41,647 bases of DNA from Eggerthellaceae bacterium (GCA_963643305.1 CAVIKQ010000001.1:1-41647); one strand, 5' to 3'; counted from the first letter of the stretch, positions 4,328 to 39,678 are shown. The notes: generated by a model not told the origin, from the letters alone. Made by a program: numbers and translations.

Positions 4328-5524
4328 ATGAAACAGTTCAAGTATTATTTGATGGCAACTGTGGTTGCTGTGGTAGCTTGCATGGGTTTAAGCTCATGCA
4401 GTGACAAAGATGATGAGGAAAGTACTTTAAATCCTGCGGCCGAGGTGGTAAACAAGACCAAAAAGTATGACACAGCTATTTTGCTCTGTACTTTTGGAAG
4501 TACCTATAACGAGTCTCTTTCCGTTTATGAAGATGTGATTAAGGATTTTAAAGCCAAGTTCCCCAATACGGACATTTATATGTCGTTCACATCACGTACA
4601 TGTATAGGACGTGTAGAGGCATCTACAGGGGTGGCTCGTTACGAATTGGATCAATGGCTAAAAGCAATTGGAGAGGCCGGTTACAGACGTGTGGCTGTTC
4701 AGTCGTTGCACGTAATTCCGGGAGAAGAGTATCTCTCTCTGATGAATACCGATGTAAAAAAATACTTTATGATTCAGTGGTTCCCTAATATAGATGTGTT
4801 GAGGGGTGCCAACCTGCTTTCAACGGAAGAGGATACAAAAGAGGTGGCCGAGATCCTTTACAAACATTATGAGTCTAAATTGGCCAACAAGAAGAGTATA
4901 GTTCTTCTAATGGGTCATGGTAATCCCGATGAGAATTACAATGCCAACAAGAAATACTCCGATGTAGAAAAAGCCCTGCATGAGCTTTCTGCCAACAACA
5001 ATATCTTTATAGGTACTGTAGATTACGGAGAGATGCTTTTCTTCCCCAATGAAGTAGAGGAGGCTCCGGCAGACAGAATTCCTGTAGAGGGATTTGACAA
5101 GACCCAATATCCCGATTGTATTTACTCTAAGGTTATGAGCTATTGCGAGGAGAACGGTCTTAACCCGTCTGAAGTAAATGTTTATCTTGCTCCTTTCATG
5201 TCTATAGCCGGAGACCATGCCCACAATGACCTTTGGGGATTGGAGGCTATTGCAGAAGGGGATAAGCTGACCGATGTAGAGATTAACACAAACGAATATA
5301 GCTGGCGTGAGCGTTTGGAGAAATTGGGATTCAAGGTAGACAGAACATTTGAGAGCCACCCAACCGATAAAGCCGGTGCAGATCATGGTATTAAAGAGGG
5401 GTGTATGATGAAACCTCTTGGGAGCTATCCGGAGATTCGTCAGATATGGGTAAACCATCTGTATGAGAATTGGAATAATGAGAGTGCATGGGAGAATGGC
5501 AAGGGTTATCAGCCTGAAGCATAG
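4328..5524 (+). CDS. Lipoprotein with a CbiK-type (class II anaerobic cobaltochelatase fold) domain
   Basis: 398 aa. Lipobox GLSSC followed by SDKDDEE. CbiK-like motifs LLCTFGSTY, SLHVIPGEEY, LMGHGNPDENYNANKKY and PFMSIAGDHAHNDL. 34 nt downstream of the receptor gene. Confidence 0.8.
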   Translation: MKQFKYYLMATVVAVVACMGLSSCSDKDDEESTLNPAAEVVNKTKKYDTAILLCTFGSTYNESLSVYEDVIKDFKAKFPNTDIYMSFTSRTCIGRVEASTGVARYELDQWLKAIGEAGYRRVAVQSLHVIPGEEYLSLMNTDVKKYFMIQWFPNIDVLRGANLLSTEEDTKEVAEILYKHYESKLANKKSIVLLMGHGNPDENYNANKKYSDVEKALHELSANNNIFIGTVDYGEMLFFPNEVEEAPADRIPVEGFDKTQYPDCIYSKVMSYCEENGLNPSEVNVYLAPFMSIAGDHAHNDLWGLEAIAEGDKLTDVEINTNEYSWRERLEKLGFKVDRTFESHPTDKAGADHGIKEGCMMKPLGSYPEIRQIWVNHLYENWNNESAWENGKGYQPEA

Positions 5525-5540
5525 TTCTATAGCAACAATA

Positions 5541-12812: not shown

Positions 12813-12856
12813 AAGGGGTGGCCTGTTACTTTTTGGCCGCCCCTTTCGTCTTTTTT
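12813..12856 (+). terminator. Terminator-like hairpin after tnaA, overlapping the 3' end of convergent rnr
   Basis: AAGGGGTGGCC-N11-GGCCGCCCCTT followed by TCGTCTTTTTT. The right arm lies within the last rnr codons. Confidence 0.5.
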
Positions 12857-15066
12857 CTCTTATTCCATTGAGGGTTCCATATAAGCTCATAATCAATCAG
12901 TTTCTGTTCAAGATTCACCCGTGCAACCTTAATCTTAACCCTGTCTCCCAACATGAACTTTTTACGGGTAGATTTGCCGTAGAGCGTAAATGTATCCTCG
13001 TCATAGACGAGATAATCCTCCTTTATGTTGCGGAGCATGACCATCCCCTCTATCTTGGTAGGATCTGCCTCAACATACATTCCCCATTCTGTAATTCCCG
13101 ATATGGTTCCTTCATACTCCTCGCCAACCCTCTCCTGCATATATTCGGCCATCTTGTATTTTATACTGCTCCTCTCTGCCTCCGTTGCAACCTGCTCCCT
13201 TTCTGAAGCCTGCTTGCACAGCTCCTCATACTTCTCCTTGTTAACAGATTTGCCTTTATCCAAATAGTGGGTAAGCAACCTGTGAACCATCATATCGGGA
13301 AGCCTACGTATAGGGGAGGTAAAATGGGTATAGTAGGCAAACCCCAAACCGTAGTGCCCGATATTGTCTGTAGTATATTTTGCTCTTGCCATAGAGCGCA
13401 GGGCAAGAATCTCAATAGGGCCGGCTTCAGGCTTATCCTTAATGCTCTCCAACAGCTTGTTAAGGGCAAGCGCCAATTCGTGGGGGTCTGTAGAGGGGGT
13501 AAGACGGTAACCAAAATGCTTTATGAAATTGCGCAGCTGCTGTATCTTGTCTATATCGGGACAATCATGCACTCTATAAACAAAGGTAGGCTCCTTAATA
13601 CGCATTTTCTTTGTCACAAACTCTGCCACTTTCCTGTTAGCCAGCAACATAAACTCCTCAATAAGCCAGTTGGCCTCAGATGTTACCCTCTGTTGTACAT
13701 CTATAGGCTTGCCGTTGGCGTCAACTATAACCTTCATCTCAGGCCTCTCAAAACTGATTGAGCCGGCAGCAAAACGCTCCTTACGCAGAATAGTTGCTAA
13801 TTTATGCAGTTGCAGAATGGCCATTGCCACCTCCTTATCGGAACGGCGAACCCCCTTTATACGGCGGCCCGTAACCTTTTTAACAACAGGAACAGGGGTA
13901 TCTACCATCTCCCCCATATCATTGGGCACCTTTTTGTATTCATACTCAATGATATTCTCCCCTGCTGTTTCTATCACCTTCTGAGCCTGTTCGTAAGCAA
14001 ATCTCCTGCAAGAATTTATTATTGTACGGCCAAACCATTCATTAACCACCTTACCCGTATCTGTCATCTCAAAAACGGCAGAATAGGTAAGTTTCTCCTC
14101 ATTGGGACGCAACGAGCAGAGATTATTGGAGAGTACCTCCGGCAACATTGGAATAGTCCTGTCTACCAAATAAACAGAGGTTCCCCTCTCAACCGCCTCC
14201 TTATCTACAATCTCTCCCGGCTTAACATAATTGGTAACATCTGCAATATGAACACCAACCTCCCAATTACCGTTGCCCAACTGCTTCAAAGACAACGCAT
14301 CATCAAAATCCTTTGCATCAAACGGGTCTATTGTAAAGGTAAGGGTATCCCTAAAATCCCTCCTCCGCTCAATCTCCTCCTTTGGAATCTCAACAGAAAT
14401 CTTTGCGGCAGCATCCTCAACCTCCTTAGGGAATCTGTATGGAAGCCCATACTCCGTAAGGATAGCATGCATCTCCGTATTGTTATCCCCCGGCTCCCCA
14501 AGTACATCTACAATCTTACCGCTCGGATAATCCTCCCCTCTGCGCCATTCCGTTACTATAACCGCCACCTTTTTGCCATTATCACCAACAGAGAAATCGC
14601 CCCCCGTAACCTTTATATCGTATGGCATTGTACGGCTCTCCACAATCACCCACGCACTATCTCCAACTATCTGTAATATACCAATATGAGGCTTTTTAGA
14701 ACGTTCAACCACCTCAAGAACCTCCCCCTCGCTCTTCAGATCACCCTTCCGCGAAGAACCTTTATACACACCCACTCTAACGGTATCATTGTTAAGCGCG
14801 CCCCTCAGTTTGGAAGCACTCACAAAAATATCGGAATCCCTATCAGGAACTATTATAAACCCGTAACCCTCTCTGTTAAGAGCCACTCTGCCGGTTACCT
14901 CCTCAACAATCCTTACACCCTTTTTCCCTCCCGATAATCCACCTTTTCCTCTTTTCCCTGCCAAAGCAGCACCCCTTTTTCCACCCCTCTTTTCACCCCT
15001 CTTACCATCCCTTTTTCTCTCGGTCTTTCCATGCTTGCCTGTGGCAGCTCTATCTCTTTTTCCCAT
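12826..15066 (-). CDS. rnr: Ribonuclease R (RNase II/VacB family 3'-5' exoribonuclease)
   Basis: 746 aa. Lys/Gly-rich N-terminal tail, cold-shock-like region, RNB catalytic domain (IDPFDAKDFDDALS, HYGLGFAYYTHFTSPIRRLPD) and a C-terminal S1 domain. Confidence 0.93.
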   Translation of the reverse strand: MGKRDRAATGKHGKTERKRDGKRGEKRGGKRGAALAGKRGKGGLSGGKKGVRIVEEVTGRVALNREGYGFIIVPDRDSDIFVSASKLRGALNNDTVRVGVYKGSSRKGDLKSEGEVLEVVERSKKPHIGILQIVGDSAWVIVESRTMPYDIKVTGGDFSVGDNGKKVAVIVTEWRRGEDYPSGKIVDVLGEPGDNNTEMHAILTEYGLPYRFPKEVEDAAAKISVEIPKEEIERRRDFRDTLTFTIDPFDAKDFDDALSLKQLGNGNWEVGVHIADVTNYVKPGEIVDKEAVERGTSVYLVDRTIPMLPEVLSNNLCSLRPNEEKLTYSAVFEMTDTGKVVNEWFGRTIINSCRRFAYEQAQKVIETAGENIIEYEYKKVPNDMGEMVDTPVPVVKKVTGRRIKGVRRSDKEVAMAILQLHKLATILRKERFAAGSISFERPEMKVIVDANGKPIDVQQRVTSEANWLIEEFMLLANRKVAEFVTKKMRIKEPTFVYRVHDCPDIDKIQQLRNFIKHFGYRLTPSTDPHELALALNKLLESIKDKPEAGPIEILALRSMARAKYTTDNIGHYGLGFAYYTHFTSPIRRLPDMMVHRLLTHYLDKGKSVNKEKYEELCKQASEREQVATEAERSSIKYKMAEYMQERVGEEYEGTISGITEWGMYVEADPTKIEGMVMLRNIKEDYLVYDEDTFTLYGKSTRKKFMLGDRVKIKVARVNLEQKLIDYELIWNPQWNKRKKTKGAAKK

Positions 15067-15212: not shown

Positions 15213-16733
15213 ATGGAGAAAAAAGTACTTTTAATGATTCTCGACGGATGGGGAATAGGCAAGCATGACAAATCAAATGCAATCTATACCCAGGGTCAAC
15301 CACACATAGACGCCTTAATAGCAAAATACCCTCACTCACAACTGAGTGCCAGCGGAGAGGATGTGGGACTTCCTGCAGGGCAGATGGGCAACTCGGAGGT
15401 GGGACACCTTAACATAGGAGCCGGAAGAGTAGTTTATCAGGACCTTGTAAAAATAAACAAAGCCTGTAAAGAGAAGACACTGTTAAACAACAGAGAGGTA
15501 AAAGCTGTTTACGACTACGCCAAAGAGAGCGGCAAAGCGCTGCACTTTATGGGGCTGCTATCGGATGGAGGGGTGCATAGCTCTATATATCAGCTGTTTG
15601 CAATGTTAGATATAGCCGCCGAATATGGCTTAAAGGAGGTCTACGTACACTGCTTTATGGATGGGCGCGACACAGACCCCAAGAGCGGTAAAGGCTTTAT
15701 AGAGGCATTGCAGACGCATATACAGAAGAGCACGGGAAAGATAGCCTCTGTTGTGGGCCGTTTTTACGCAATGGACAGAGACAAAAGATGGGAGAGGATA
15801 AAAGAGGCATACGACCTGCTCGTCTACGGTAAAGGAGCATATTTTACCTCTGCCGTTGAGGCAATGGAAGCATCCTACAAAGAGGAGATTACAGACGAGT
15901 TTGTAAAACCGGTTGCAATAGTAGAGGACTCAAAGCCTATAGGACTGCTCAAAGAGGGGGATGCCGTGGTCTTCTTTAATTTCAGAAACGACAGGGCACG
16001 AGAAATAACCTCTGTACTTACACAGGCAGATATGCCTGAATTTGGGATGAAGACAATGCCGTTGTATTACTGCTGTCTTACACCATACGATGACAAGTTT
16101 ACCGGAATAAAGATACTGTTCAACAAAGAGAATGTTAGGCAGACACTTGGAGAGGTGGTAGCCGAAGCCGGAAAGAGACAGCTGAGAATAGCGGAGACAG
16201 AGAAATACGCCCATGTAACATTCTTCTTTAACGGAGGCAGGGAGACCCCGTTTGCCAACGAAGACAGAATATTGGTAAACTCCCCTAAGGTTAAAACATA
16301 CGATCTCAAACCTGAGATGAGTGCTCCTGAGGTTGCCCAAAAACTTATAGATGTGCTCAATACACAGAAAGAGGATCTTATTATCCTTAACTTTGCCAAT
16401 GGCGATATGGTTGGGCATACAGGCGTTTATACCGCCATTGAAAAAGCAGTTGAAACAGTAGACAGATTGGCAGGGGAGGTTGTGGATGTTGCGCGCAAGA
16501 ACAACTACACCGTGCTCATTACGGCAGACCACGGCAACGCAGACCATGCGATAAATGAGGATGGCACCCCTAACACGGCACACTCGCTTAATCCGGTACC
16601 GTTCATTGTAGTAGACAACGATGTAAAATCTGTAAAGAACGGCATCTTGGCAGATATTTCACCTACAATTTTAACCCTTATGGGAATCAAGCAGCCTGAA
16701 GCAATGACGGGGAAGAGCCTTGTTAGTTTATAG
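15213..16733 (+). CDS. gpmI: 2,3-bisphosphoglycerate-independent phosphoglycerate mutase
   Basis: Starts at [14 protein letters not shown]; the ORF-track TTG start at 15174 adds 13 unlikely residues. Contains the motifs [21 protein letters not shown] and GDMVGHTG. Confidence 0.93.
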
Positions 16734-16734
16734 C

Positions 16735-16758
16735 ATTGGCATTGGAATTGGCATTGGC
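16735..16758. repeat. Left arm of a 24-bp imperfect inverted repeat made of (C/A)ATTGG hexamers
   Basis: ATTGGCATTGGAATTGGCATTGGC begins 2 nt after the gpmI stop. It matches the reverse complement of 18563-18586 at 21/24 positions (23/26 if extended to 16733 and 18588). Confidence 0.8.
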
Positions 16759-16984
16759 GCAGACATTGTCCGATGCCGGCGAATAACTATAGAATCTCCA
16801 CCTCTTTCGGGATTGGACAGCAGAAAAAAGTCCGCAAATTGCAGCAATTGTTTGCTTCCGTTTGTGGACTTTACTGTGCTTAAATTATAATTATTTAATG
16901 CGTGTATATGTATACCTTCCCTAAACTATTACTTTTGATGGAACAATAAAATGTTTTGCGAAAGAACTTTGTAGGGGCAATCTC

Positions 16985-18400
16985 CTACGCAAATAAATCC
17001 TCTAATGTTATCTCGCTTTGTACAACCCCGGAGTGTGAGTTCCGACGGACTCCATATGTCGTGACCATAGTAAGATGAACAGCCTTGCGTGTTTTTGTAG
17101 CCTCGATAAACGCACTTTTTTTGTTACGCAGCTCGCGTTCGTAATCAGCATCAATAGTGAACTCAGACAAAGAGTATTTCATCTCGCAGATATTTATCAC
17201 CTGGTCATTGCGGTCTATCAGCAAATCAATTTGTGCTCCTTTGCCATTTTCATCTGCCTCTTTTCTCCATGAATAGATGTTACTCAATACACCTGAAATA
17301 CCCAATCCAGCCTTGATTTGCTGTGTGTGAGCCATACACAGGCGCTCAAAAGCCAAACCGCTCCATGCCCGATGCGTTGCAGAATCTATAGAAATAGACC
17401 AGAAATGCTCGTCATTATTTTTGTTTTGCCGGATAAACTTGAAATAAAAGAGTGTATAGTTATCGACTAATTGATAGATTGCCTGTTTTGTCTTTTTGCC
17501 ATAGCCACTGTATTTTCGTATGAATCCGCAGTATTCCAACTCATCAAGCACCTTACTCAATGCACCGTTGCTCGGCTTGTCGATTGCGGTCATAATCTCC
17601 TCGCGAGCCATACCAACCTTTTTACGGCCAAGAGCGGTTACGACATCTATATATTGCTCCGGTGACCTAAATAACGATGCATAGAGTTGATTAAACTCAT
17701 TTGACAATTTACCATTCTTGGTAAAGAAAATCTTATCAATGTTTTGAGCAAGACTGGGCTCCTTTTCAAGCATACTCCAATAAAAAGGTATGCCTCCCAA
17801 CACCATATAACATTCGGCAATTTGATAACGGTTCATTTCAAGACCTCTGTTTTTAGCAAACATTTCACACTCACGCAAAGTAAACGGCAGAAGTGCTATA
17901 CGCTGTGTAACTCGGTTATGAAGTCCGCCATGGTCGTTAATCACTTTGTTGATAATCCATGATGTGGCAGAACCACAAATAATCAGAACTATATCCTTTC
18001 TGGCCGATGCCCATCCATTCCAGAAATGTTCAAAGGCAGAGATGAAATTTGAACGAGGAGTATCCATCCATGGAAGTTCGTCAAGGAAGATTAATTTTTT
18101 CTCATCTGTCGAATTCTTCAGTAAATGAGATAACAGGCTGAATGCCTCCAGCCATGATTGTGGTATTGGGCAATCGTCGTATCCGGCATCACGAAGTGAA
18201 ATGGCAAAACTGAACAGCTGATCTTTTGTCTTGGCATTGGCCAGACCGGTATGTTGGAATGTAAACTTATAGCCAAATGTTTCACGAATTAGATACGTCT
18301 TACCTACTCGCCTGCGGCCATAGACTGCTATGAATTCCGCATATTCCGACTGTACTGCCGAAAGCAATATTTTCTGCTCTTCTTTTCTTCCGATTATCAT
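16985..18400 (-). CDS. AAA+ ATPase (ATPase_2 type) fused to a DUF234-like C-terminal domain with PD-(D/E)xK nuclease-like residues
   Basis: Start set at MIIGRKEEQ (Met at 18400) because a -7 box lies at 18420-18427. Walker A is VYGRRRVGKTYL and Walker B is LIFLDELPWM. The C-terminus carries GLAFERL ... QIDLLIDRND ... ICEMKY, an E / D / ExK pattern. Confidence 0.8.
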   Translation of the reverse strand: MIIGRKEEQKILLSAVQSEYAEFIAVYGRRRVGKTYLIRETFGYKFTFQHTGLANAKTKDQLFSFAISLRDAGYDDCPIPQSWLEAFSLLSHLLKNSTDEKKLIFLDELPWMDTPRSNFISAFEHFWNGWASARKDIVLIICGSATSWIINKVINDHGGLHNRVTQRIALLPFTLRECEMFAKNRGLEMNRYQIAECYMVLGGIPFYWSMLEKEPSLAQNIDKIFFTKNGKLSNEFNQLYASLFRSPEQYIDVVTALGRKKVGMAREEIMTAIDKPSNGALSKVLDELEYCGFIRKYSGYGKKTKQAIYQLVDNYTLFYFKFIRQNKNNDEHFWSISIDSATHRAWSGLAFERLCMAHTQQIKAGLGISGVLSNIYSWRKEADENGKGAQIDLLIDRNDQVINICEMKYSLSEFTIDADYERELRNKKSAFIEATKTRKAVHLTMVTTYGVRRNSHSGVVQSEITLEDLFA

Positions 18401-18419
18401 AACAATAGATTTTTCACTA

Positions 18420-18427
18420 CAAATATA
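18420..18427 (-). promoter_or_regulatory. -7 promoter box (TATATTTG on the minus strand) for the ATPase gene
   Basis: The plus strand reads CAAATATA, 20 nt upstream of the Met codon at 18400. Confidence 0.45.
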
Positions 18428-18446
18428 GCAAAAACAACTCACATAA

Positions 18447-18483
18447 TTAGCCAAATCGCATAAAATTTTGGCGATTTGGCTAA
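18447..18483. promoter_or_regulatory. Perfect 13-bp inverted repeat (operator-like) upstream of the ATPase promoter
   Basis: TTAGCCAAATCGC-N11-GCGATTTGGCTAA. No flanking T-tract on either strand, so it is not an obvious terminator. Confidence 0.5.
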
Positions 18484-18562
18484 TTATAAGTGATTTTTAA
18501 ACCTAAAATTGGTCTTCCCTTGACCTTCACTAAAAAAGGTTTGACCTTCCCTGTCCACCAAA

Positions 18563-18586
18563 GCCAATGCCAAAGCCAATGCCAAA
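18563..18586. repeat. Right arm of the 24-bp imperfect inverted repeat
   Basis: GCCAATGCCAAAGCCAATGCCAAA is the reverse complement of TTTGGCATTGGCTTTGGCATTGGC. It lies about 45 bp upstream of the dnaE -7 box. Confidence 0.8.
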
Positions 18587-18631
18587 GCGGATAAAGCGCA
18601 CTATAAACTTTAAAACATACGGGAATTATTG

Positions 18632-18664: not shown

Positions 18665-21600
18665 ATGCAATTTGCTCATCTGCACGTACATACATATTAT
18701 TCTATATTGGATGGCGCATCCTCTATAAAATCACATTTTAAAAAAGTGCAGGCTAATGGTCAGCCCGCACTTGCCATTACAGATCATGGTAATATGTTTG
18801 GGGTTAAGGAGTTCTTTAAGGTTGCAAAAGAATTTCCCGATATTAAACCCATAGTAGGCTGTGAAGTGTATGTTAATCCGGAGGGGCGTTTTTCAAAAAG
18901 AGGAAAAGAGGATCAAAGTGCAAACCACCTTATCCTTTTGGCCAAAAACTTAGAGGGCTATTACAACCTTGTAAAGATAGTATCCACAGGCTGGACAGAG
19001 GGGTTCTACTACAAACCCAAGATAGACCACGAGATATTGGAAAAATATCACAACAACATCATCTGTTCATCTGCCTGTTTAGGCGGCGAGATACCCCAAT
19101 TCATTAAAGAGGGGAATATAGAGGCGGCCTACAACACTGCAAAATGGTACAAGAACCTTTTTGGAGAGGACTATTACCTTGAGGTCATGCTCCATAAAAC
19201 AGAGCTGCCCGGTTATAACGAAGAGGCATATCCGCAGCAGCAAAAGGTTAACGCAGAGATATTTAAAATGTCTAAAGAGTTAGGCATTAAAGTAATAGCA
19301 ACAAATGACGTTCACTTTACCAACAAAGAGGACGGCCCTGCACACGACCGTCTAATCTGCCTCACCACCAACGTAAACTTTGATGCTCCAAAACGGTTGA
19401 AATATACCCAGCAGGAGTATATGAAGACAACAGAGGAGATGCAGGCTCTTTTTCCAGATCATTTAGAGGCGTTGGAGAACACAATGGAGATTGTAGAGAA
19501 GGTAGAACGCTACACAATAGACAAAGGGCACGTTCTGCCCCTTTTCCCAATACCCAAAAAATACACAGACTCAAACGATTATCTGCATGATTTGGTTTAT
19601 GAGGGGGCAGAGAGGCGCTACAAGACAATAGACAACGCAACGCAAGAAAGGATAGATTTTGAGTTGGCTACAATAAAGAAGATGGGATTTCCCGATTACT
19701 TCCTTATAGTACAAGACTTTATAAAGGCGGCACGAGAAATGGGGGTATGGGTAGGCCCCGGCAGAGGTTCGGCAGCAGGTTCGGTAGTAGCCTATTGCTT
19801 GGGTATTACCAATTTAGACCCAATCAAATATGATTTGCTGTTTGAGCGTTTCCTTAATCCCGACAGAATCTCCATGCCCGATATAGACATAGACTTTGAC
19901 GACGAAGGGCGCGGAACAGTACTCAAATATGTAGAGGAGAAATACGGCAAAGATCATGTATCTCACGTTGTTACCTTTGGAACAATGGCAACCAAAAGCG
20001 CCATAAAAGATATAGCCAGAATACAGAACGTACCGTTGGCAGAAAGCGACAGGCTAACAAAACTTATCCCTGATTCATTCCCACCAGACAAGGTTGAGAA
20101 GAAAGATGAGAACGGCAATGTAGTAGGCACAGAGGAGAAAAAGGTAAAAGTTACAGTAGAAAACTGCATTAAGTTAATACCGGAGATGCATCAGGCATAC
20201 GAATCCTCTCCCATACCGGGAGTTCACGAGACCTTGGAGTATGCAGAAAAGTTAGAGGGAACGGTAAGAAACACAGGAGTTCATGCCTGCGCCATTATAA
20301 TAGGCAGAGACAACCTAACCAAGCATATCCCAATCTGCATAGCAAAAGACAAGGAGACAGGGGAGGATATGTGGGTTTCCCAATACGAGGGGAGCTTTAT
20401 AGAGGATGTAGGGATGCTAAAGATGGATTTTCTTGGGTTAAGAACCCTCTCCATTCTAAAGGAAGCCGTAAGCAACGTAAAGAAACACAGAGGCATAGAT
20501 ATAGACATAGAGGCAATCCCAATAGACGACAAAGCAACCTTTGACCTCTTTAGCCGTGGAGATACAGTGGCCGTGTTCCAGTTTGAAAGCCCCGGCATGC
20601 AGAAATGGCTAAGGGAGCTGCAGCCAAACAGATTTGAGGATCTCATAGCCATGAACGCCCTCTACCGCCCCGGCCCAATGGACTATATCCCAGATTTTGT
20701 AGCCCGTAAAAAGGGGGAGCAGAAGATAGAATATGACCTTCCCGATATGGAGAGCATCCTCTCCAACACATACGGAGTAACAGTATATCAGGAGCAGGTG
20801 ATGCTGCTATCCCAAAAACTCGCAAACTTTACCAAAGGGCAGGCAGACGGATTGAGAAAAGCTATGGGTAAAAAGCTCATAGACAAAATGATGGAACTTA
20901 GAGCCAAGTTCTTTGAGGGAGGAGTGGCAAACGGGCATCCCAAGGAGATATTGGAGAAGATATGGAAAGACTGGACAGCATTTGCGCAATACGCATTCAA
21001 CAAATCCCATGCAACCTGTTACGCATGGGTGGCGTATCAGACAGGCTACATGAAGGCCAACTATCCGGCCGAGTTCATGGCAGCCAACCTCAGCAGGAAC
21101 CTCAACAATATGGATGAGATAACCAAGCTGATGGATGAGTGCAGAAGGATGGGTATAGCAGTACTTGGTCCCGATGTAAATGAATCTGACCTGCGATTTA
21201 CAGTTAACAGAAAGGGGGAGATACGTTTTGGTATGGCGGGAGTAAAAGGGGTAGGGTCTAACGTAGTGGACAGTATTGTTAAAGGACGGGAGAACGTCCC
21301 TTACAAAGATATATTCGACTTTATAGAGAGGGCAGCCGGTGCCGGCACAATAAACAGAAAGACAGTTGAATCGCTTGTGTATGCCGGAGCCTTTGATTCA
21401 TTCGAGGGAATCAACAGAGACCAGTTCTTTAAGCTCAACAACAAGGAGGAGCAGTTCATAGACGCCCTTTGCAGGTATGGAGTAAAAGTGCAGACAGATG
21501 CAGTGAATATGGGCAACTCCCTCTTTGGAGATGTAGAGGAGTTTAAACCTGTCCCTCCGGAAATTCCTGTTCCCGGAGAATACAACAAGTTAGAGTTCCT

Positions 21601-22312
21601 TAAAAAGGAGAAAGAGCTTGTTGGAATGTATCTGTCTGCCCATCCGTTAGATATGTTTAAGTTTGAACTTGACAACTTTACAACAGCCTCTCTTACAGAG
21701 GCCGAACAGATGACAAAGGATGCCTCGGTAAATACAGAGCTTCAGAATAAAGACCTTCTGTTAGGGGGTCTTATTACAGGGGTATCAAAAAAGTTCTCAC
21801 AGAAGAACGGAAAGCCGTGGGCCGATTTTACTATAGAGGATTTTAACGGGAGTGTGAATTTCAGGCTGTTCGGCAAAGATTATGAGACATTTATGCCGTT
21901 TTTGGAGGATGGTAATGCCGTCTTCATGAAATGCAGGATTACTCCAAAATATTTTGCCAAAAAGGATGACGAAACCAAAAAGGGAGAGGAGGAGAAACCG
22001 CAGCAGCTTGATTGCGAGCTGAAAATAAAGAGGATGGTGCTTTTGGCAAACACCAAAGATGACTTCATTAAATCCTTTACCATAAACATTCCGGTTCATA
22101 AACTTACAGAGGAGTTTAGAAAGGGGTTTGTAAAGGAGCTAAAAAGAAACAAGGGACATAAAATGCTGTCCCTTAAAATAGTAGATTACGAAAAACAGCT
22201 TACGGCAGACTTCTTCTCGCGCAAACTCAAGGTAGATGTAAACAACAATCTGTTAGACTACCTGGACCACAACAACTTAGAGTACTCAGTAGAAAAAGAG
22301 GTAAGCCTGTAG
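18665..22312 (+). CDS. dnaE: DNA polymerase III alpha subunit
   Basis: Starts MQFAHLHVHTYYSILDGA (PHP domain). Contains the polymerase core (PDIDIDF, GLLKMDFLGLRTL), an HhH region and an OB fold. About 1215 aa from the ATG at 18665. Confidence 0.95.
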   Translation: MQFAHLHVHTYYSILDGASSIKSHFKKVQANGQPALAITDHGNMFGVKEFFKVAKEFPDIKPIVGCEVYVNPEGRFSKRGKEDQSANHLILLAKNLEGYYNLVKIVSTGWTEGFYYKPKIDHEILEKYHNNIICSSACLGGEIPQFIKEGNIEAAYNTAKWYKNLFGEDYYLEVMLHKTELPGYNEEAYPQQQKVNAEIFKMSKELGIKVIATNDVHFTNKEDGPAHDRLICLTTNVNFDAPKRLKYTQQEYMKTTEEMQALFPDHLEALENTMEIVEKVERYTIDKGHVLPLFPIPKKYTDSNDYLHDLVYEGAERRYKTIDNATQERIDFELATIKKMGFPDYFLIVQDFIKAAREMGVWVGPGRGSAAGSVVAYCLGITNLDPIKYDLLFERFLNPDRISMPDIDIDFDDEGRGTVLKYVEEKYGKDHVSHVVTFGTMATKSAIKDIARIQNVPLAESDRLTKLIPDSFPPDKVEKKDENGNVVGTEEKKVKVTVENCIKLIPEMHQAYESSPIPGVHETLEYAEKLEGTVRNTGVHACAIIIGRDNLTKHIPICIAKDKETGEDMWVSQYEGSFIEDVGMLKMDFLGLRTLSILKEAVSNVKKHRGIDIDIEAIPIDDKATFDLFSRGDTVAVFQFESPGMQKWLRELQPNRFEDLIAMNALYRPGPMDYIPDFVARKKGEQKIEYDLPDMESILSNTYGVTVYQEQVMLLSQKLANFTKGQADGLRKAMGKKLIDKMMELRAKFFEGGVANGHPKEILEKIWKDWTAFAQYAFNKSHATCYAWVAYQTGYMKANYPAEFMAANLSRNLNNMDEITKLMDECRRMGIAVLGPDVNESDLRFTVNRKGEIRFGMAGVKGVGSNVVDSIVKGRENVPYKDIFDFIERAAGAGTINRKTVESLVYAGAFDSFEGINRDQFFKLNNKEEQFIDALCRYGVKVQTDAVNMGNSLFGDVEEFKPVPPEIPVPGEYNKLEFLKKEKELVGMYLSAHPLDMFKFELDNFTTASLTEAEQMTKDASVNTELQNKDLLLGGLITGVSKKFSQKNGKPWADFTIEDFNGSVNFRLFGKDYETFMPFLEDGNAVFMKCRITPKYFAKKDDETKKGEEEKPQQLDCELKIKRMVLLANTKDDFIKSFTINIPVHKLTEEFRKGFVKELKRNKGHKMLSLKIVDYEKQLTADFFSRKLKVDVNNNLLDYLDHNNLEYSVEKEVSL

Positions 22313-30329: not shown

Positions 30330-31157
30330 ATGAACAGAGTAGTATATCCTAACGCAAAGCTAAATATAGGGCTTAAGGTGCTCGGCAAGAGGGAGGATGG
30401 GTTTCATAATATAGAGACTCTCTTTCTTCCTGTACCCACGCTGACGGATATTCTCGAAATCTCAGACAATTGTCATTTGGAGGGGGAGCAGGGCAAAGAT
30501 ATAATCCGGTGTGGCAAGGTGCTGTTCAGGCAGACAGGGATAGAGGCCGGCAATCCGGCAGACAACCTTTGCATAAAGGCTTATAACACAATAGACGAGG
30601 CAACAGAGGGCAAGCTACCCCCTGTTTATATACATCTACATAAACAGATTCCCGTGGGGGCAGGGCTTGGAGGGGGTTCTGCAGATGCCTCATTTACCCT
30701 TAAAACCATTAATAGCATCTATGAATGCGGTCTCTCTAACAATCATCTGAAAGAGCTGTCTCTGCAACTTGGCAGCGACTGTCCGTTCTTCATAGAGAAT
30801 ACCCCAATGCTTGGGGAGGGGAGAGGGGAACTGCTTACCCCAATAGAGTTCTCTCTGCCCAAAGGATACCGTTTTGAATTTCTGTTTCCACCGCTTTTTG
30901 TCTCAACTGCCGATGCCTACAGAGGGATAGTACCACGCAACTGTTGGCAGGAACAGCCTGTAGACAACAGCCCCCTTACAGAGTTGGTAAAAGCCCCAAT
31001 AGAAGAGTGGAAAAATCTCATCTTCAATGATTTTGAACATACGGTCTTTGCCAAATATCCTGTTCTGGCAGAGTACAAGCAATCCCTTTACAACAGAGGA
31101 GCCGTATATGCCTCAATGAGCGGCAGCGGAAGCAGCATGTTCGGGATTTTTAAATGA
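30330..31157 (+). CDS. ispE: 4-diphosphocytidyl-2-C-methyl-D-erythritol kinase
   Basis: 275 aa GHMP kinase. Motifs: PNAKLNIGLKVLGKREDGFHNIETLF and IPVGAGLGGGSADAS. Confidence 0.9.
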   Translation: MNRVVYPNAKLNIGLKVLGKREDGFHNIETLFLPVPTLTDILEISDNCHLEGEQGKDIIRCGKVLFRQTGIEAGNPADNLCIKAYNTIDEATEGKLPPVYIHLHKQIPVGAGLGGGSADASFTLKTINSIYECGLSNNHLKELSLQLGSDCPFFIENTPMLGEGRGELLTPIEFSLPKGYRFEFLFPPLFVSTADAYRGIVPRNCWQEQPVDNSPLTELVKAPIEEWKNLIFNDFEHTVFAKYPVLAEYKQSLYNRGAVYASMSGSGSSMFGIFK

Positions 31158-37056: not shown

Positions 37057-39678
37057 ATGAACAAAAGATTTTTAAGTGCACTTCTTGCAGCTACCTTAAT
37101 GGTGGCCTCAACAGAGGTGTTCGTGTCTTGTAAAGACTATGATGATGACATCGATGCCATCAACACAGAATTGACACAGATCAAATCGCAGATTTCAGCC
37201 ATTGAGGCTAAAATCAACGGAGGACAGTGGATTACCAGTGTAACTCCTGTAACTAACGGTTTCACCGTAACATTCTCAGGCGGTGGAAGCTATACCATCA
37301 CAAACGGTAAAGACGGTGCTGACGGTGCAACAGGTGCTGACGGTAAGAACGGTACACAATGGACCATTTCAGAGGATGGCTATTGGGTATGCGACGGTGT
37401 AAAGACAGACGTCAAGGCTGTCGGTGTTGACGGTAAAGACGGTGCTAACGGTGCCGACGGTGAAAACGGCAAAGACGGCGTTGACGGCAAGGACGGCAAG
37501 GACGGCAAGGATGCCCTTAACGCCGTAAAGAAAGAGAACGGCAAATGGTATTTGTGGAACGGAACAGAGTATGAGGAGTTCACAGTAGCTGCTGCCGACA
37601 ATATCCCTTACTGCTACACCGACCCAGACGATACCAACTATGCAGTATTGGTAATATATGACGAGAACGGCGAGAACAAACAGGAGATTCGTCTTCCTTT
37701 GAACGAAGGTCTTGCTCAGATTGCAATCCTTAATGCAGACGATGTGCTTACCGTTAACTACGCAATCTACCAGGTTAAAAGCGCAAAACAGGCTGTTTGG
37801 GATGGTGCAAAACCTGCCCCTGTAAAAGGTGAGTATATCATCACCCAGTCTATGGACAGCATTTTGGTACAGGTAACCCCAACCAACTACGATTTGGCAG
37901 CCATTTCATCATTCTCGTTGGTTAACTCATTGAGCGAGGCTGCTCCTGTAGCCGTAGGCGCTCCTGTTGCTTACAATAAAGTACTTACAAGAGCTGCTTC
38001 AAAAGGCGGCCTTTATCAGATGTCTGTAACTGCTGACCCTATTACAGACGAGAGCAAGGCAGCATATACAGTTGATGGTGGCAGATATATTGCACTTTCA
38101 CTCAAAGCCAACGATAAGGTACGTTCAGGTTATGAGCTTAAATACAAACTTAACGAGGTAACATCTTCTCCAATAATAAAGTTTGAGAGAGCTGTTACAA
38201 CCAAACCGGGTGAGCCTGTAACAATCAAGGTAACAGAGGGAGCAGAGTATCTTTACGATGCTTACATGTACACAGCAAACGAGCACAGCAAGGCTGACTC
38301 TTTAAAATTCGGTTTGGAGACAGGCAAAACCCTTACCGTTAAGAGCAATGCAGACGCTTTTGGTACTGTAAACTTTACAATCCGTTATTGTGATGTATTG
38401 GGCGCTATTAAAGAGGCATCTGTAGATGTTACATTCTCAGACAACAAGGTGGTAGAGGTTAACAACGTTGTTGACACTACAGATCATGTAGCAACAGGAA
38501 CGAAGACTGCTCTCCAATACATGTTGGTTGATTTCACTCCTTATCTGAAGAGCATGACAGAGGACGAGAGAACCTACTGGAACGGATATTCATCATTTGA
38601 TAATAGTGTTGAAGTTACTTGGTCAGATATAGACCCTTATCCAGATAGAGAGACAGAGCCTGTAGATGTTACCGGTTTGGTTGCCGGCATAACTAAATGT
38701 AATGCTAAGGGTAAGACCGTTTCTAATAATGCTGATTTCACTCATCTGAAAGTAACATTCAAAGAAAACTACAAAGATGCTGACAATAACAATGTAACCT
38801 TAGGTATTAAAAATGGTGCTACATTCACTGCACAGGTAAGAATCAACAGAGCAGCAAACGGAGAAGACCATATTGTATATGTACCATTTACAATTGATAA
38901 CCCTGTTGCAACCGAGTACAGCTCATTGTACACATTCAACCCTGCATATTTTGCAAATGGCACACTTACACTTATAGATACACCTTTTGATACCGAGGTT
39001 GACTTGAGCGATTATGTTAAAGAGGGAGCTTCTTACCTTGACTATACAAGAGCTGCATCTACTGAGAAGACGTTAATCCCTGTTGTTAAGAGTGGCGTGG
39101 AGCCGGATGTTGTTAGCACAAGCAAGATAAAGAGGGTAACTCCTACAGCTAATCCAACTACCGGAGTAACTCCAAAAGCTCCAACCAGCACTACTATAAG
39201 CGGCTGGCAGGTTAAATACATGGATCGTTTGTTCCCTGTATCTGCATTCAAGGTTAAGTTCGCAGCCTCAACAGACTACACTGTAGTAGCAGACAGCGCA
39301 TCTGTAAGCATCCTAAGCGGTGTTGACGTTGAGAGAGCTAAACTGTACTACAGAGATGTTACAACCGATGCAGCAAAAGCAGCTAAGTATCCTAACTTCT
39401 TCTATTTGAAAGCAGCTGACGGTACATATACACAAAATGGCGTGACATGTAAATTCATCTTTGGAGAAGAGGAGGACGGTACTCCTATCGCAGAGAATGA
39501 CTATATTAAGTTTGGTACATGGCAGACTGATGCTAGCGGAGTAGGTTATTTTGCAATAACAGCTAAAAAGAAAGTAACTGTTGATACTCAGATACCGGTA
39601 ACAGTAGTATGTACAATAGGCGGTAAGGAGTACACAGGTGAGTTTACAGTTACTGTAAAGGCATACCCTGTTAATTAG
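37057..39678 (+). CDS. Surface lipoprotein with an N-terminal coiled coil and two collagen-like G-X-Y repeat blocks; large beta-rich C-terminal region of unknown function
   Basis: 873 aa. Lipobox VFVSC followed by KDYDDD. A heptad-like segment (INTELTQIKSQISAIEAKI). G-X-Y runs GKDGADGATGADGKNG and GVDGKDGANGADGENGKDGVDGKDGKDGKD, each followed by a Trp-rich motif (GYWVCDG, GKWYLWNG). Confidence 0.8.
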   Translation: MNKRFLSALLAATLMVASTEVFVSCKDYDDDIDAINTELTQIKSQISAIEAKINGGQWITSVTPVTNGFTVTFSGGGSYTITNGKDGADGATGADGKNGTQWTISEDGYWVCDGVKTDVKAVGVDGKDGANGADGENGKDGVDGKDGKDGKDALNAVKKENGKWYLWNGTEYEEFTVAAADNIPYCYTDPDDTNYAVLVIYDENGENKQEIRLPLNEGLAQIAILNADDVLTVNYAIYQVKSAKQAVWDGAKPAPVKGEYIITQSMDSILVQVTPTNYDLAAISSFSLVNSLSEAAPVAVGAPVAYNKVLTRAASKGGLYQMSVTADPITDESKAAYTVDGGRYIALSLKANDKVRSGYELKYKLNEVTSSPIIKFERAVTTKPGEPVTIKVTEGAEYLYDAYMYTANEHSKADSLKFGLETGKTLTVKSNADAFGTVNFTIRYCDVLGAIKEASVDVTFSDNKVVEVNNVVDTTDHVATGTKTALQYMLVDFTPYLKSMTEDERTYWNGYSSFDNSVEVTWSDIDPYPDRETEPVDVTGLVAGITKCNAKGKTVSNNADFTHLKVTFKENYKDADNNNVTLGIKNGATFTAQVRINRAANGEDHIVYVPFTIDNPVATEYSSLYTFNPAYFANGTLTLIDTPFDTEVDLSDYVKEGASYLDYTRAASTEKTLIPVVKSGVEPDVVSTSKIKRVTPTANPTTGVTPKAPTSTTISGWQVKYMDRLFPVSAFKVKFAASTDYTVVADSASVSILSGVDVERAKLYYRDVTTDAAKAAKYPNFFYLKAADGTYTQNGVTCKFIFGEEEDGTPIAENDYIKFGTWQTDASGVGYFAITAKKKVTVDTQIPVTVVCTIGGKEYTGEFTVTVKAYPVN
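37306..37512 (+). repeat. Collagen-like triplet-repeat coding region (9-bp periodicity)
   Basis: Block 1 at 37306-37353 (16 aa) and block 2 at 37423-37512 (30 aa). GACGGCAAG is repeated perfectly three times at 37483-37509. Confidence 0.85.

What the first reader, a model, noticed from the sequence alone, without database searches (positions are those of the whole stretch)
16733..18588. Single-gene ATPase/nuclease-like cassette flanked by 24-bp inverted TTGGCA-type repeats between gpmI and dnaE
An unusual hexamer array starts two nt after the gpmI stop codon: ATTGGCATTGGAATTGGCATTGGC (16735-16758). Its reverse complement recurs at 18563-18586 at 21/24 identity (23/26 when extended), just upstream of the dnaE promoter box. 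The 1.8 kb between them holds a single minus-strand gene with its own -7 box (18420-18427) and a perfect 13-bp palindrome (18447-18483). The gene encodes an AAA+ ATPase (Walker A GRRRVGKT, Walker B FLDELP) fused to a DUF234-like C-terminus. That C-terminus carries an E...D...ExK pattern (AFERL / IDLLID / CEMKY), suggestive of a PD-(D/E)xK nuclease fold. The flanking genes are core housekeeping genes on the opposite strand, so this looks like an insertion. One possibility is insertion into what was once a palindromic intergenic hairpin. NTPase-plus-nuclease single-gene modules are a recurring theme in anti-phage defence, but this family has no established function. A second, nuclease-less paralogue lies at 353-1489 beside a tRNA scar.
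Basis: partly seen in the sequence, partly recalled or inferred. Interest (0 to 1): 0.65.

Follow-up and report, generated by a model that had tools for sequence, protein, structure and literature searches.

The report
Mobile ATPase-nuclease gene beside chance-like repeats
The gene between gpmI and dnaE belongs to an already catalogued but unproven candidate phage-defence family (PADLOC PDC-S27), and travels as a compact 1.5-kb unit, while the inverted TTGGCA repeats around it are local simple-sequence arrays of this spacer, not the ends of the insert.

Summary
The arms 16733-16758 and 18563-18588 are 23/26 complementary and are the only period-6 arrays in the window.

The 471-aa minus-strand gene (16985-18400) matches PADLOC PDC-S27 over its full length (E 1e-214). 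It has an ATPase_2/Orc-Cdc6-like AAA+ domain, a winged helix and a C-terminal domain with canonical PD-(D/E)xK topology. E352, D392, E406 and K408 are invariant or nearly so. Its own Pfam DUF234 match fails, but 27 of 100 relatives hit DUF234.

A sister lineage (gpmI 94-95% identical) has gpmI-dnaE without the gene, so presence/absence polymorphism exists. That empty spacer already carries diverged, length-variable versions of both arms. The indel boundaries lie inside the arms (16922/16923 and about 18552-18575) and are bracketed by a 9-bp direct repeat.

About 45 other loci share only 16983-18509: a conserved promoter palindrome plus the ORF. This unit sits in at least 19 contexts. Proteins at least 90% identical occur in different Bacteroidales families.

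The defence role is unproven; one published heterologous test of a PDC-S27 gene showed no protection. Verdict: a new member of a known kind, of modest interest.

The parts
16733..16758 (.). Arm L: hexanucleotide array (GCATTG x4.3) directly after the gpmI stop codon. It is a local simple-sequence repeat, not an element terminus.
   Evidence: A diverged array sits at the same place in the ATPase-less sister lineage, and L106 has 12 nt more than L096.
16768..16824 (+). Pseudo-copy of the 3' end of the AIRS-family gene (CGATGCCGGCGAATA) joined to a 38-nt segment. In the sister lineage that segment follows the real AIRS-gene stop and abuts a 52-nt ATPase gene fragment.
16827..16872 (.). Bidirectional intrinsic-terminator hairpin, with an A-run on one side and a T-run on the other. 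It is conserved in the sister lineage.
   Evidence: -28.7 kcal/mol, z -4.65 on the plus strand; -22.6 kcal/mol, z -4.3 on the minus strand.
16914..16922 (+). Left copy of the 9-bp direct repeat ACCTTCCCT. Homology with the empty site ends exactly here.
   Evidence: only two copies in the window.
16923..16984 (-). 62 nt between the indel boundary and the stop codon. It is unique to this locus and contains a weak hairpin overlapping the stop.
16985..18400 (-). ATPase-wHTH-nuclease gene, 471 aa, PADLOC PDC-S27. AAA+ domain is residues 5-207 (17780-18388), winged helix is about residues 247-312 (17465-17662), and the PD-(D/E)xK domain is about residues 333-471 (16988-17404).
16983..18509 (-). The conserved 1.52-kb cassette (palindrome, promoter and ORF up to the stop codon). 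It is shared at 72-94% nucleotide identity with about 45 loci in other genomic contexts.
18420..18427 (-). Bacteroidetes-type -7 promoter box TATATTTG. The motif is conserved as TAnnTTTG in five aligned loci.
18443..18487 (.). Perfect 17-bp-arm palindrome (ATAATTAGCCAAATCGC / GCGATTTGGCTAATTAT) with an 11-nt A/T loop, upstream of the -7 box. It is a probable operator.
18544..18552 (+). Right copy of the 9-bp direct repeat ACCTTCCCT.
18558..18588 (.). Arm R: hexanucleotide array (CCAAAG/CCAATG x5.2). Only the last one or two units (from about 18576) align with the two-unit array of the sister lineage.

Best explanation
The gene encodes a single-polypeptide, ATP-driven DNA nuclease of the PDC-S27 / COG1672 kind. 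It has three parts: an Orc/Cdc6-like AAA+ ATPase (ATPase_2), a winged-helix DNA-binding domain, and a catalytically intact PD-(D/E)xK domain of the DUF234 type.

It is carried on a compact 1.52-kb unit made of a promoter-proximal palindrome, a Bacteroidetes -7 promoter and the ORF. That unit is horizontally mobile among Bacteroidales and is present or absent at this gpmI-dnaE junction in close relatives.

Inferred mechanism:
- The winged helix binds DNA. It probably also binds its own palindromic operator, which would give autorepression.
- ATP binding or hydrolysis by the AAA+ module gates oligomerisation and activation of the nuclease.
- The most probable biological role is a conflict function: anti-phage or anti-mobile-element defence, or abortive infection.

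The flanking inverted TTGGCA-type arms are hexanucleotide simple-sequence arrays that belong to the gpmI-dnaE spacer of this lineage. They are not part of the cassette and played no demonstrable role in its arrival.

Shown here: domain architecture, conserved catalytic residues, cassette limits, presence/absence polymorphism, dispersal, and independence of the arms from the cassette.

Inferred only: operator function, ATP-gated nuclease activity, and the defence role.
For: Family and fold:
- PDC-S27 HMM match E 1.4e-214 over residues 2-470.
- ATPase_2 scores 43 bits against a cutoff of 33.2.
- Profile matches to 2fna and 2qen cover residues 6-298.
- AlphaFold model has pLDDT 97 and pTM 0.93; the best Foldseek hits are 2qen and Orc/Cdc6 proteins.
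- C-terminal secondary-structure order is helix(E352), strand, strand(D392), strand(E406-x-K408), helix, strand.
- E352, D392, E406 and K408 are nearly invariant in 125 relatives at 36-52% identity and invariant in the 32-sequence C-terminal alignment.
- DUF234 hits 27 of 100 relatives, mapped to residues about 330-420.
- DUF234/COG1672 is listed as a PD-(D/E)XK family (PMC3424549).

Cassette and mobility:
- Homology limits fall at 16981-16992 and 18488-18509 in about 45 loci.
- There are 19 upstream and 19 downstream flank clusters, in shuffled combinations.
- One 90% cluster holds proteins from Alistipes and Bacteroides caecigallinarum, whereas gpmI between such families is only about 62-66% identical.

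Empty sites.

Palindrome:
- It is present upstream of every close copy.
- It is enriched in distant homologues, with different arm sequences.
Against: - No experiment supports defence. One PDC-S27 representative cloned in E. coli B was not among the four candidates that protected against T4, T5 or T7 (PMC12881386).
- Most neighbours of the cassette are housekeeping, regulatory or transport genes. Only about 8 of 78 flanking ORFs hit defence-candidate models, and 3 are integrases.
- The protein itself does not reach any Pfam nuclease model. Its best hit is DUF4143 at E 0.028.
- The isolated C-terminal domain could not be searched by fold, and a sequence profile of it finds nothing in the PDB.
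- The same palindrome motif also precedes other small genes, so autoregulation by this protein is not the only reading.
- The direction of the polymorphism is ambiguous. The sister lineage carries a 52-nt ATPase fragment next to a copy of the window's 3' flank, so its empty site may be a loss.
Confidence: 0.6

Rival explanations
1. The 1.52-kb unit is itself a selfish mobile element. The AAA+/winged-helix/PD-(D/E)xK protein catalyses or targets its own spread by homing-like or transposition-like breakage. The covarying palindrome is its cis-acting site rather than, or as well as, an operator.
For: - The unit has discrete limits within a few nucleotides in about 45 loci and at least 19 contexts, with no other shared gene.
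- Near-identical copies occur across Bacteroidales families.
- A 9-bp direct repeat brackets the indel here, and an approximately 80-nt direct repeat brackets the unit in the L146 context.
- L002 and L003 carry the identical cassette, but their sequences diverge just upstream of the palindrome.
- The palindrome keeps its position while its arms change on both sides among subfamilies.
- The AAA+ profile has a weak match to TnsC (E 6e-5).
Against: - There are no terminal inverted repeats, and no consistent target duplication across contexts. Only 2 of 24 contexts show a significant flanking repeat.
- The segment bracketed by direct repeats is larger than the conserved unit and carries locus-specific DNA (62 nt and 34 nt here). 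That fits illegitimate recombination better than a precise transposase.
- Flank shuffling can arise by homologous recombination between dispersed copies.
- No PD-(D/E)xK plus AAA+ single-protein transposase is known (own knowledge).
- The palindrome also precedes unrelated genes.
Confidence: 0.15
2. The cassette inserted into a pre-existing palindromic intergenic hairpin, so the two arms are the split halves of that hairpin or the terminal inverted repeats of the insert.
For: - The arms are a highly non-random 23/26 inverted pair flanking the gene.
- The outgroup lineage (gpmI 80% identical) has only a 55-bp spacer with no arms.
- The CATTGG/CCAATG unit is shared by both arms here but is absent from both arms of the sister lineage.
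Against: - In the empty sister site the two arrays are about 340 bp apart, not adjacent. They share only about 8-9 complementary bases.
- 164 bp of conserved spacer, including a terminator, lies between arm L and the indel boundary.
- No other cassette copy has the arms.
- The left array varies in length between contigs of the sister lineage, as a slippage-prone microsatellite would.
- The pattern is common in unrelated viral contigs.
Confidence: 0.05
3. The arms are recombination sites of a DNA invertase, so the 1.8-kb segment is an invertible ('inverton'-like) region.
For: Bacteroidales commonly use inverted repeats of 15-30 bp for site-specific inversion (own knowledge). The arms here are 26 bp and flank a self-contained transcription unit.
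Against: - All 12 sister-lineage contigs and the one contig from the same lineage (L001) have the same orientation.
- No invertase gene is adjacent, according to the ORF list and Pfam on the neighbours.
- Inversion would not connect or disconnect any promoter, because the gene carries its own.
- Tandem hexamers are not typical invertase core sites (own knowledge).
Confidence: 0.03
4. The protein has a non-defence cellular role, such as DNA repair or recombination or transcription-factor-like regulation. Its dispersal would reflect paralogue expansion and gene conversion rather than conflict.
For: - Contexts are mostly housekeeping or metabolic.
- There was a negative heterologous phage test.
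- The family is very abundant and sits as solo genes.
- The PDC lists rest on a single embedded instance being enough (10.1101/2024.01.29.577857).
Against: - Presence/absence varies between close relatives.
- Cross-family near-identity implies horizontal transfer.
- Some copies sit in integrase, Fic, RhuM and YobI-ATPase islands.
- Homologues occur on plasmids and in the Wolbachia phage WO region.

These are accessory-gene properties, not those of a core function.
Confidence: 0.15

Closest known systems
PADLOC phage defence candidate PDC-S27 (Payne et al., guilt-by-embedding; model PDLC04984)
   Same: Full-length HMM match (E 1.4e-214, residues 2-470). It is a single-gene system described as an ATPase domain fused to a PD-(D/E)xK superfamily member (PMC12988326), and it is abundant in rumen and gut Bacteroidales (PMC13356809).
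   Different: Nothing at the protein level. The family's defence activity is unproven, and one representative gave no reported protection. The compact cassette limits, the covarying promoter palindrome and the cross-family dispersal seen here did not appear in the papers retrieved and read here.
COG1672 / Pfam ATPase_2 (PF01637) + DUF234 (PF03008) proteins; solved relatives 2fna (Sulfolobus SSO1545) and 2qen (Pyrococcus Walker-type ATPase)
   Same: The ATPase_2 domain is above Pfam threshold. Profile and fold matches to 2fna and 2qen cover the ATPase plus winged helix. DUF234 is a recognised PD-(D/E)XK family and is hit by 27 of 100 relatives in the equivalent region.
   Different: This protein's own C-terminus does not reach DUF234 at E <= 0.01. 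It is a divergent branch. 2fna and 2qen are matched only over the ATPase and winged helix.
PDC-S01 / COG1373 (AAA_14 + DUF4143) and AAA-ATPase_like + PDDEXK_9 families of Bacteroidales
   Same: The design is the same: a P-loop ATPase followed by a PD-(D/E)xK domain, as solo genes expanded in Bacteroidales. There are weak cross-hits (PDC-S01 at 3e-6, DUF4143 at 0.028). Three cassette neighbours are PDC-S01 proteins.
   Different: They are different ATPase and nuclease subfamilies, and the matches are far below family thresholds.
STAND/Avs-type NTPase-nuclease immune proteins
   Same: The NTPase, winged-helix and nuclease-effector logic is shared. Foldseek hits include Avs4 and plant NLR NB-ARC modules, and there are nSTAND6 and iSTAND hits in a minority of relatives.
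   Different: At 471 aa there is no repeat sensor domain. The nuclease is C-terminal, and the ATPase is closest to Orc/Cdc6-type AAA+ proteins.
Integron gene cassettes (ORF + attC)
   Same: The unit is a single ORF with one imperfect or perfect palindrome whose structure and position are kept while its sequence changes. The unit ends at the stop codon.
   Different: There is no RYYYAAC/GTTRRRY core by inspection. There are no arrays and no integron integrase nearby. The palindrome lies upstream of the promoter rather than 3' of the ORF, and the cassettes are solitary in housekeeping contexts.

Membership tests
PADLOC PDC-S27 | Full-length match to the PDC-S27 profile HMM as a single-gene system | tested here: met
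   PDLC04984 E 1.4e-214, 711 bits, residues 2-470 of 471 on profile positions 4-473 of 474.
PADLOC PDC-S27 | Demonstrated anti-phage activity | not testable with these tools
   Literature only. It is listed as a candidate. One representative was tested in E. coli B and was not among the protective systems.
Pfam ATPase_2 (PF01637), AAA+ P-loop ATPase | Score above the gathering threshold; Walker A and Walker B present | tested here: met
   43.0 bits against 33.2, residues 5-207. G28, G33 and K34 and D107 and E108 are invariant in 125 relatives.
Pfam DUF234 (PF03008) | Score above the gathering threshold on the C-terminal domain | tested here: not met
   No hit at E <= 10 for this protein's C-terminus. 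27 of 100 relatives hit it at E <= 0.01 (best 1e-5); the three hits seen individually were below the 22.5-bit cutoff. It is DUF234-like, not a formal member.
PD-(D/E)xK nuclease superfamily | Core alpha-beta-beta-beta-alpha-beta topology, with E on helix 1, D at strand 2 and ExK on strand 3 | tested here: met
   Model with pLDDT 97: H341-356 (E352), E373-380, E389-397 (D392), E401-408 (E406, K408), H418-435, E440-447. The residues are invariant in the C-terminal alignment.
PD-(D/E)xK nuclease superfamily | Significant fold match of the isolated domain to a solved PD-(D/E)xK nuclease | tested here: inconclusive
   The whole-protein Foldseek list is saturated by AAA+ hits. A sequence profile against the PDB finds nothing.
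Transposon / IS with terminal inverted repeats (arms as TIRs) | The same inverted termini at the ends of other copies, and termini coinciding with the insertion boundaries | tested here: not met
   No arms occur at any of about 45 other copies. The boundaries are 164 bp inside arm L and at or inside arm R. The arms are present in the empty site.
Integron gene cassette | attC with R''/R' core sites, cassette arrays, IntI/attI nearby | tested here: not met
   No core motifs flank the palindrome (by inspection). Cassettes are solitary, and the three neighbouring recombinases are phage-integrase-family proteins with an Arm-DNA-binding domain (PF17293); no cassette array or attI was seen.
Invertible DNA segment (inverton) | Both orientations observed in a population; invertase nearby | tested here: inconclusive
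   Only one orientation appears in L001 and in 12 sister contigs. There is no read-level data.

The most novel reading that the evidence does not exclude
The PDC-S27 unit is an autonomous single-gene mobile element of a kind not yet described. An Orc/Cdc6-like AAA+ ATPase, winged helix and PD-(D/E)xK nuclease would recognise the structure-conserved, sequence-covarying palindrome at the head of its own cassette. It would use it as a cis site for excision, insertion or homing, which would explain both its 'embedding' in other loci and its precise 1.5-kb limits in many contexts across Bacteroidales families.
Probability: 0.12. Interest if true: 0.75.

Novelty: new member of a known kind. Interest (0 to 1): 0.3.

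Why it matters
As submitted, the finding would have suggested a new kind of inverted-repeat-bounded defence cassette. The evidence shows instead a member of a very abundant but functionally untested family (PDC-S27), sitting next to ordinary slippage-prone hexamer arrays.

The useful outcomes are threefold:
- A clean natural presence/absence pair at a housekeeping junction, for experiments.
- A high-confidence structural model with defined catalytic residues to mutate.
- The observation that the family travels as a compact promoter-palindrome-plus-ORF unit with covarying palindromes. This gives a concrete handle (operator or cis site) for working out what this widespread ATPase-nuclease does.

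Tried and rejected
- **Single-sequence AlphaFold.** The result was useless (pLDDT 37). It was repeated with a 125-sequence alignment.
- **Exact look-ups of the window's gpmI.** These found nothing. The homologue search followed by contig look-ups succeeded.
- **GTDB representative genomes.** The best gpmI match is 73% identical and none keeps gpmI-dnaE synteny, so they were uninformative about the junction.
- **NCBIfam.** No model matches.
- **Rfam on the region.** Nothing was found.
- **PDB sequence searches.** The protein alone gave no hits, and a profile of the C-terminal domain gave only noise.
- **Arm L as an RNA hairpin.** It folds no better than shuffles.
- **The 38-nt segment as a copy of the dnaE 3' end.** Similarity is weak (p about 0.01-0.03), so this is not relied on.
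- **A systematic search for target-site duplications around 24 contexts.** Only the window (9 bp) and the L146 context (34-80 nt) stand out.
- **TTGGCATTGG inside the ORF.** It occurs at 18231-18240 and encodes ANAK. I estimate the chance of such a match at about 0.03, and I treat its resemblance to the arms as probably coincidental. The same applies to the GCCAAA core shared by the arms and the palindrome half-site (my estimate about 0.05).
- **The 146 bp unique to the sister's empty spacer.** It matches nothing fetched.


Full report
**Observation**

- gpmI (15213-16733, +) ends with TAG at 16731-16733.
- One base later a hexamer array runs to 16758 (GCATTGGCATTGGAATTGGCATTGGC).
- Its reverse complement recurs at 18563-18588 with 23/26 matches (I2).
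- TTGGCATTGG with at most one mismatch occurs 12 times in the window against 3.8 expected. No shuffle out of 100 reached 12, and eight of the hits lie in the two arms.
- Tandem Repeats Finder reports no other period-6 array in the 41.6 kb.
- Between the arms lies one minus-strand gene, 16985-18400, 471 aa. It has a Bacteroidetes -7 box (TATATTTG, 18420-18427).
- Upstream of that box is a palindrome that is longer than reported: perfect 17-bp arms at 18443-18459 and 18471-18487 around an 11-nt A/T loop.
- gpmI and dnaE (18665-22312) are confirmed by Pfam.

**What the gene is**

- Pfam places residues 5-207 in ATPase_2 (43 bits against a cutoff of 33.2).
- PADLOC's model for the phage defence candidate PDC-S27 matches residues 2-470 at E 1.4e-214. 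NCBIfam has no model.
- The family is large and uniform. There are 1,158 clusters at 50% identity with E <= 1e-30, and nearly all of the 150 best hits listed are 440-500 aa and match over the full length.
- An alignment of 125 relatives at 36-52% identity keeps the Walker A residues (G28, G33, K34) and Walker B residues (D107, E108) invariant.
- In the same alignment E352, Q390, D392, R397, D399, E406 and K408 are nearly invariant in the C-terminal part.
- In a C-terminal-only alignment of 32 sequences, E352, D392, E406 and K408 are invariant.

With that alignment, AlphaFold gives a model with pLDDT 97 and pTM 0.93.
- The N-terminal two-thirds resemble the Pyrococcus Walker-type ATPase 2qen and Orc/Cdc6 proteins, that is, AAA+ plus winged helix.
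- The C-terminal domain has the order helix 341-356 (E352), strand 373-380, strand 389-397 (D392), strand 401-408 (E406-x-K408), helix 418-435, strand 440-447. This is the canonical PD-(D/E)xK core.
- The protein itself does not reach Pfam DUF234. Its best C-terminal hit is DUF4143 at E 0.028.
- However, 27 of 100 relatives hit DUF234, and where inspected the hit maps to residues about 330-420.
- Steczkiewicz et al. list both DUF234/COG1672 and DUF4143 as PD-(D/E)XK families (PMC3424549).

I could not run a fold search on the isolated domain. A sequence profile of the domain finds nothing in the PDB.

**Is it an insertion?**

Exact look-ups and GTDB representatives were uninformative. A homologue search with gpmI followed by contig look-ups gave the needed relatives.
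- A sister lineage with gpmI 94-95% identical (L096-L106, 12 contigs from different samples) has RNase R, gpmI, dnaE, the AIRS-family gene and sufB in the same order as the window. Its gpmI-dnaE spacer is 437-460 bp and holds no ATPase gene.
- A more distant lineage (gpmI 80% identical, L107-L110) has a 55-bp spacer.

Presence/absence polymorphism is therefore established. Alignment of the spacers shows the boundaries.
- Homology with the empty site runs from gpmI through 16922 and stops exactly after ACCTTCCC.
- Homology resumes at about 18576, inside arm R.
- ACCTTCCCT occurs only twice in the window, at 16914-16922 and 18544-18552. The indel is therefore bracketed by a 9-bp direct repeat, of which the sister site has one copy.

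**What the arms are**

The empty sister spacer already has a hexamer array directly after the gpmI stop.
- In most contigs it reads GCGTTGGCTTTAGCTTTAGCGTTTGCTTTGGCG, and L106 has 12 nt more.
- A two-unit array, CCAA(A)GCCAAAGC, sits where arm R is.
- In the sister lineage the two arrays are about 340 bp apart and share only 8-9 complementary bases.
- Between arm L and the indel boundary lie 164 bp that are conserved in both lineages. They include a strong bidirectional terminator hairpin at 16827-16872.

The arms are therefore slippage-prone simple-sequence arrays native to this spacer. They are not cassette termini or halves of a split hairpin.
- None of the other cassette copies examined has such arrays.
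- The pattern TTGGCWTTGGNWTTGGCWTTGG occurs in more than 119 unrelated viral contigs, including giant-virus bins.

One point remains unexplained. In the window both arms have acquired the unit CATTGG/CCAATG, which neither sister arm has, and arm R has five units instead of two.

**The real unit**

Comparison with 14 loci from exact-protein look-ups and 46 close metagenome loci gives consistent limits.
- Nucleotide homology (72-94%) always starts 88-109 nt upstream of the ATG (window 18488-18509).
- It always stops at the stop codon (16981-16992).

This 1.52-kb unit lies in at least 19 different upstream and 19 different downstream contexts, and the combinations are shuffled. Examples:
- BACON or DUF5106 genes upstream, with aldose epimerase, thyA and folA downstream.
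- A polysaccharide utilisation locus upstream, with a hybrid two-component regulator downstream.
- An island carrying integrase, Fic, RhuM and YobI-ATPase genes.

Evidence for horizontal transfer:
- Proteins at least 90% identical occur in Alistipes and Bacteroides caecigallinarum.
- Relatives about 85-89% identical to the window protein occur in Muribaculaceae, Cryptobacteroides and Rikenellaceae.
- By contrast, gpmI between such families is 62-66% identical.

The segment that differs from the sister site here (16923 to about 18552) is slightly larger than the conserved unit. It carries 62 nt and 34 nt of locus-specific DNA. In the L146 context the unit is bracketed by an approximately 80-nt direct repeat. 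No consistent terminal repeats or target duplications were found across contexts.

**History at this locus**

The sister lineage has 245 extra bp between dnaE and the AIRS-family gene. They contain a 52-nt fragment of an ATPase gene, 92% identical to window 18227-18278. That fragment is fused to a 38-nt segment that also lies at window 16787-16823.

Window 16768-16782 repeats codons from the 3' end of the AIRS-family gene. The cassette and its 3' flank were therefore already in this neighbourhood in the common ancestor. The sister's empty gpmI-dnaE site may be a loss rather than the ancestral state. I cannot resolve the direction.

**The palindrome**

- Every close copy carries GCCAAATC-N15-GATTTGGC at a fixed distance upstream of the TAnnTTTG box.
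- Homologues at 50-57% identity mostly have a palindrome 39-46 nt before the ATG with different arms (for example CGGAAAT/ATTTCCG and CTAAATC/GATTTAG).
- 28 of 48 loci have arms of at least 11 matched bases, against 2% of shuffles.
- The palindrome lies upstream of the promoter box, so it acts at the DNA level. An operator co-evolving with the protein's winged helix is the simplest reading.
- The same motif also precedes other small genes in L142 and L143, so a shared trans-acting regulator or another role is possible.

**Function**

PDC-S27 was proposed by 'guilt by embedding' (10.1101/2024.01.29.577857). It is described as an ATPase fused to a PD-(D/E)xK domain and as awaiting validation (PMC12988326). 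One representative cloned in E. coli B was not among the candidates that protected against T4, T5 or T7 (PMC12881386).

A census of 78 ORFs flanking 23 contexts gives mostly regulators, transporters and metabolic genes. It also contains three integrases, three PDC-S01 proteins, three Ser/Thr kinases and two PDC-S06 proteins.

Homologues on plasmids and phages are at most 49% identical, and where a feature is annotated it is called 'ATP-binding protein' or 'hypothetical protein'.

The accessory, horizontally mobile behaviour and the intact nuclease favour a conflict role. That role, and the ATP-gated nuclease mechanism, are inference.

**Verdict**

The gene is a new member of a known but functionally unproven family. 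The arms are an eye-catching feature of the local spacer and are unrelated to the cassette. The compact cassette with its covarying palindrome is the most interesting lead, and it leaves open a small chance that the unit mobilises itself.

Noticed in passing
L096:11891-12136 (sister lineage, dnaE / AIRS-family gene spacer): There are 245 extra bp compared with the window's 3-bp spacer. They hold a 52-nt ATPase gene fragment fused to a 38-nt copy of window 16787-16823, plus the N-terminal fragment of a trpG/pabA-like amidotransferase (my reading of MLVDNHDSFVYNL). It is a decayed remnant of an earlier cassette-bearing insertion.
   Followed up: partly
L002 vs L003 (5' flank of the cassette, about locus position 4950): The identical ATPase protein and identical downstream genes have completely different upstream genes in different samples. 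The sequences diverge just upstream of the palindrome. Flank shuffling of this kind recurs across the metagenome loci.
   Followed up: partly
L146:3797-3876 and 5447-5526 (also L140, L143): An approximately 80-nt direct repeat (34 nt perfect) brackets the cassette in this context, reminiscent of attL/attR or a long duplication.
   Followed up: partly
L142:5467-5497, L143:7752-7782, L140:7587-7617, L154:1108-1138: A second copy of the GCCAAATC-N15-GATTTGGC palindrome lies downstream of the ATPase gene. In L143 it lies just after an XRE-like HTH ORF and ahead of a short, uncalled reading frame (my reading), with a metallophosphatase ORF about 250 nt further on. In L142 a GHKL-type ATPase ORF starts 270 nt downstream of it. 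The motif is therefore not exclusive to PDC-S27.
   Followed up: partly
window:18231-18240: TTGGCATTGG, the arm unit, also occurs inside the ATPase ORF, where it encodes ANAK. The ATPase fragment in the sister-lineage scar starts four bases before the equivalent of this motif. I judge this to be probably coincidence.
   Followed up: partly
window:302-348: A period-15 repeat (ATTACGTAATTTTGC x3.1) containing TTACGTAA palindromes sits immediately upstream of the distant ATPase_2-like ORF at 353-1489. It is a possible operator for that gene.
   Followed up: no
window:30154-30316: A perfect 78-bp tandem duplication (2.1 copies) lies in an intergenic region upstream of ORF 30330-31157.
   Followed up: no
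window:14970-15017: A period-12 repeat (CACCCCTCTTTC x4) lies at the 5' end of the minus-strand RNase R-like ORF 12826-15066.
   Followed up: no
window:37312-37511: There are several overlapping 9- and 18-nt tandem repeats inside ORF 37057-39678, so the protein is probably repetitive.
   Followed up: no
L052:27-1199 and L090:7433-8851: In two other Bacteroidales genomes a 41-44% identical ATPase homologue also lies next to or near gpmI. Given the family's abundance this is probably coincidence.
   Followed up: no
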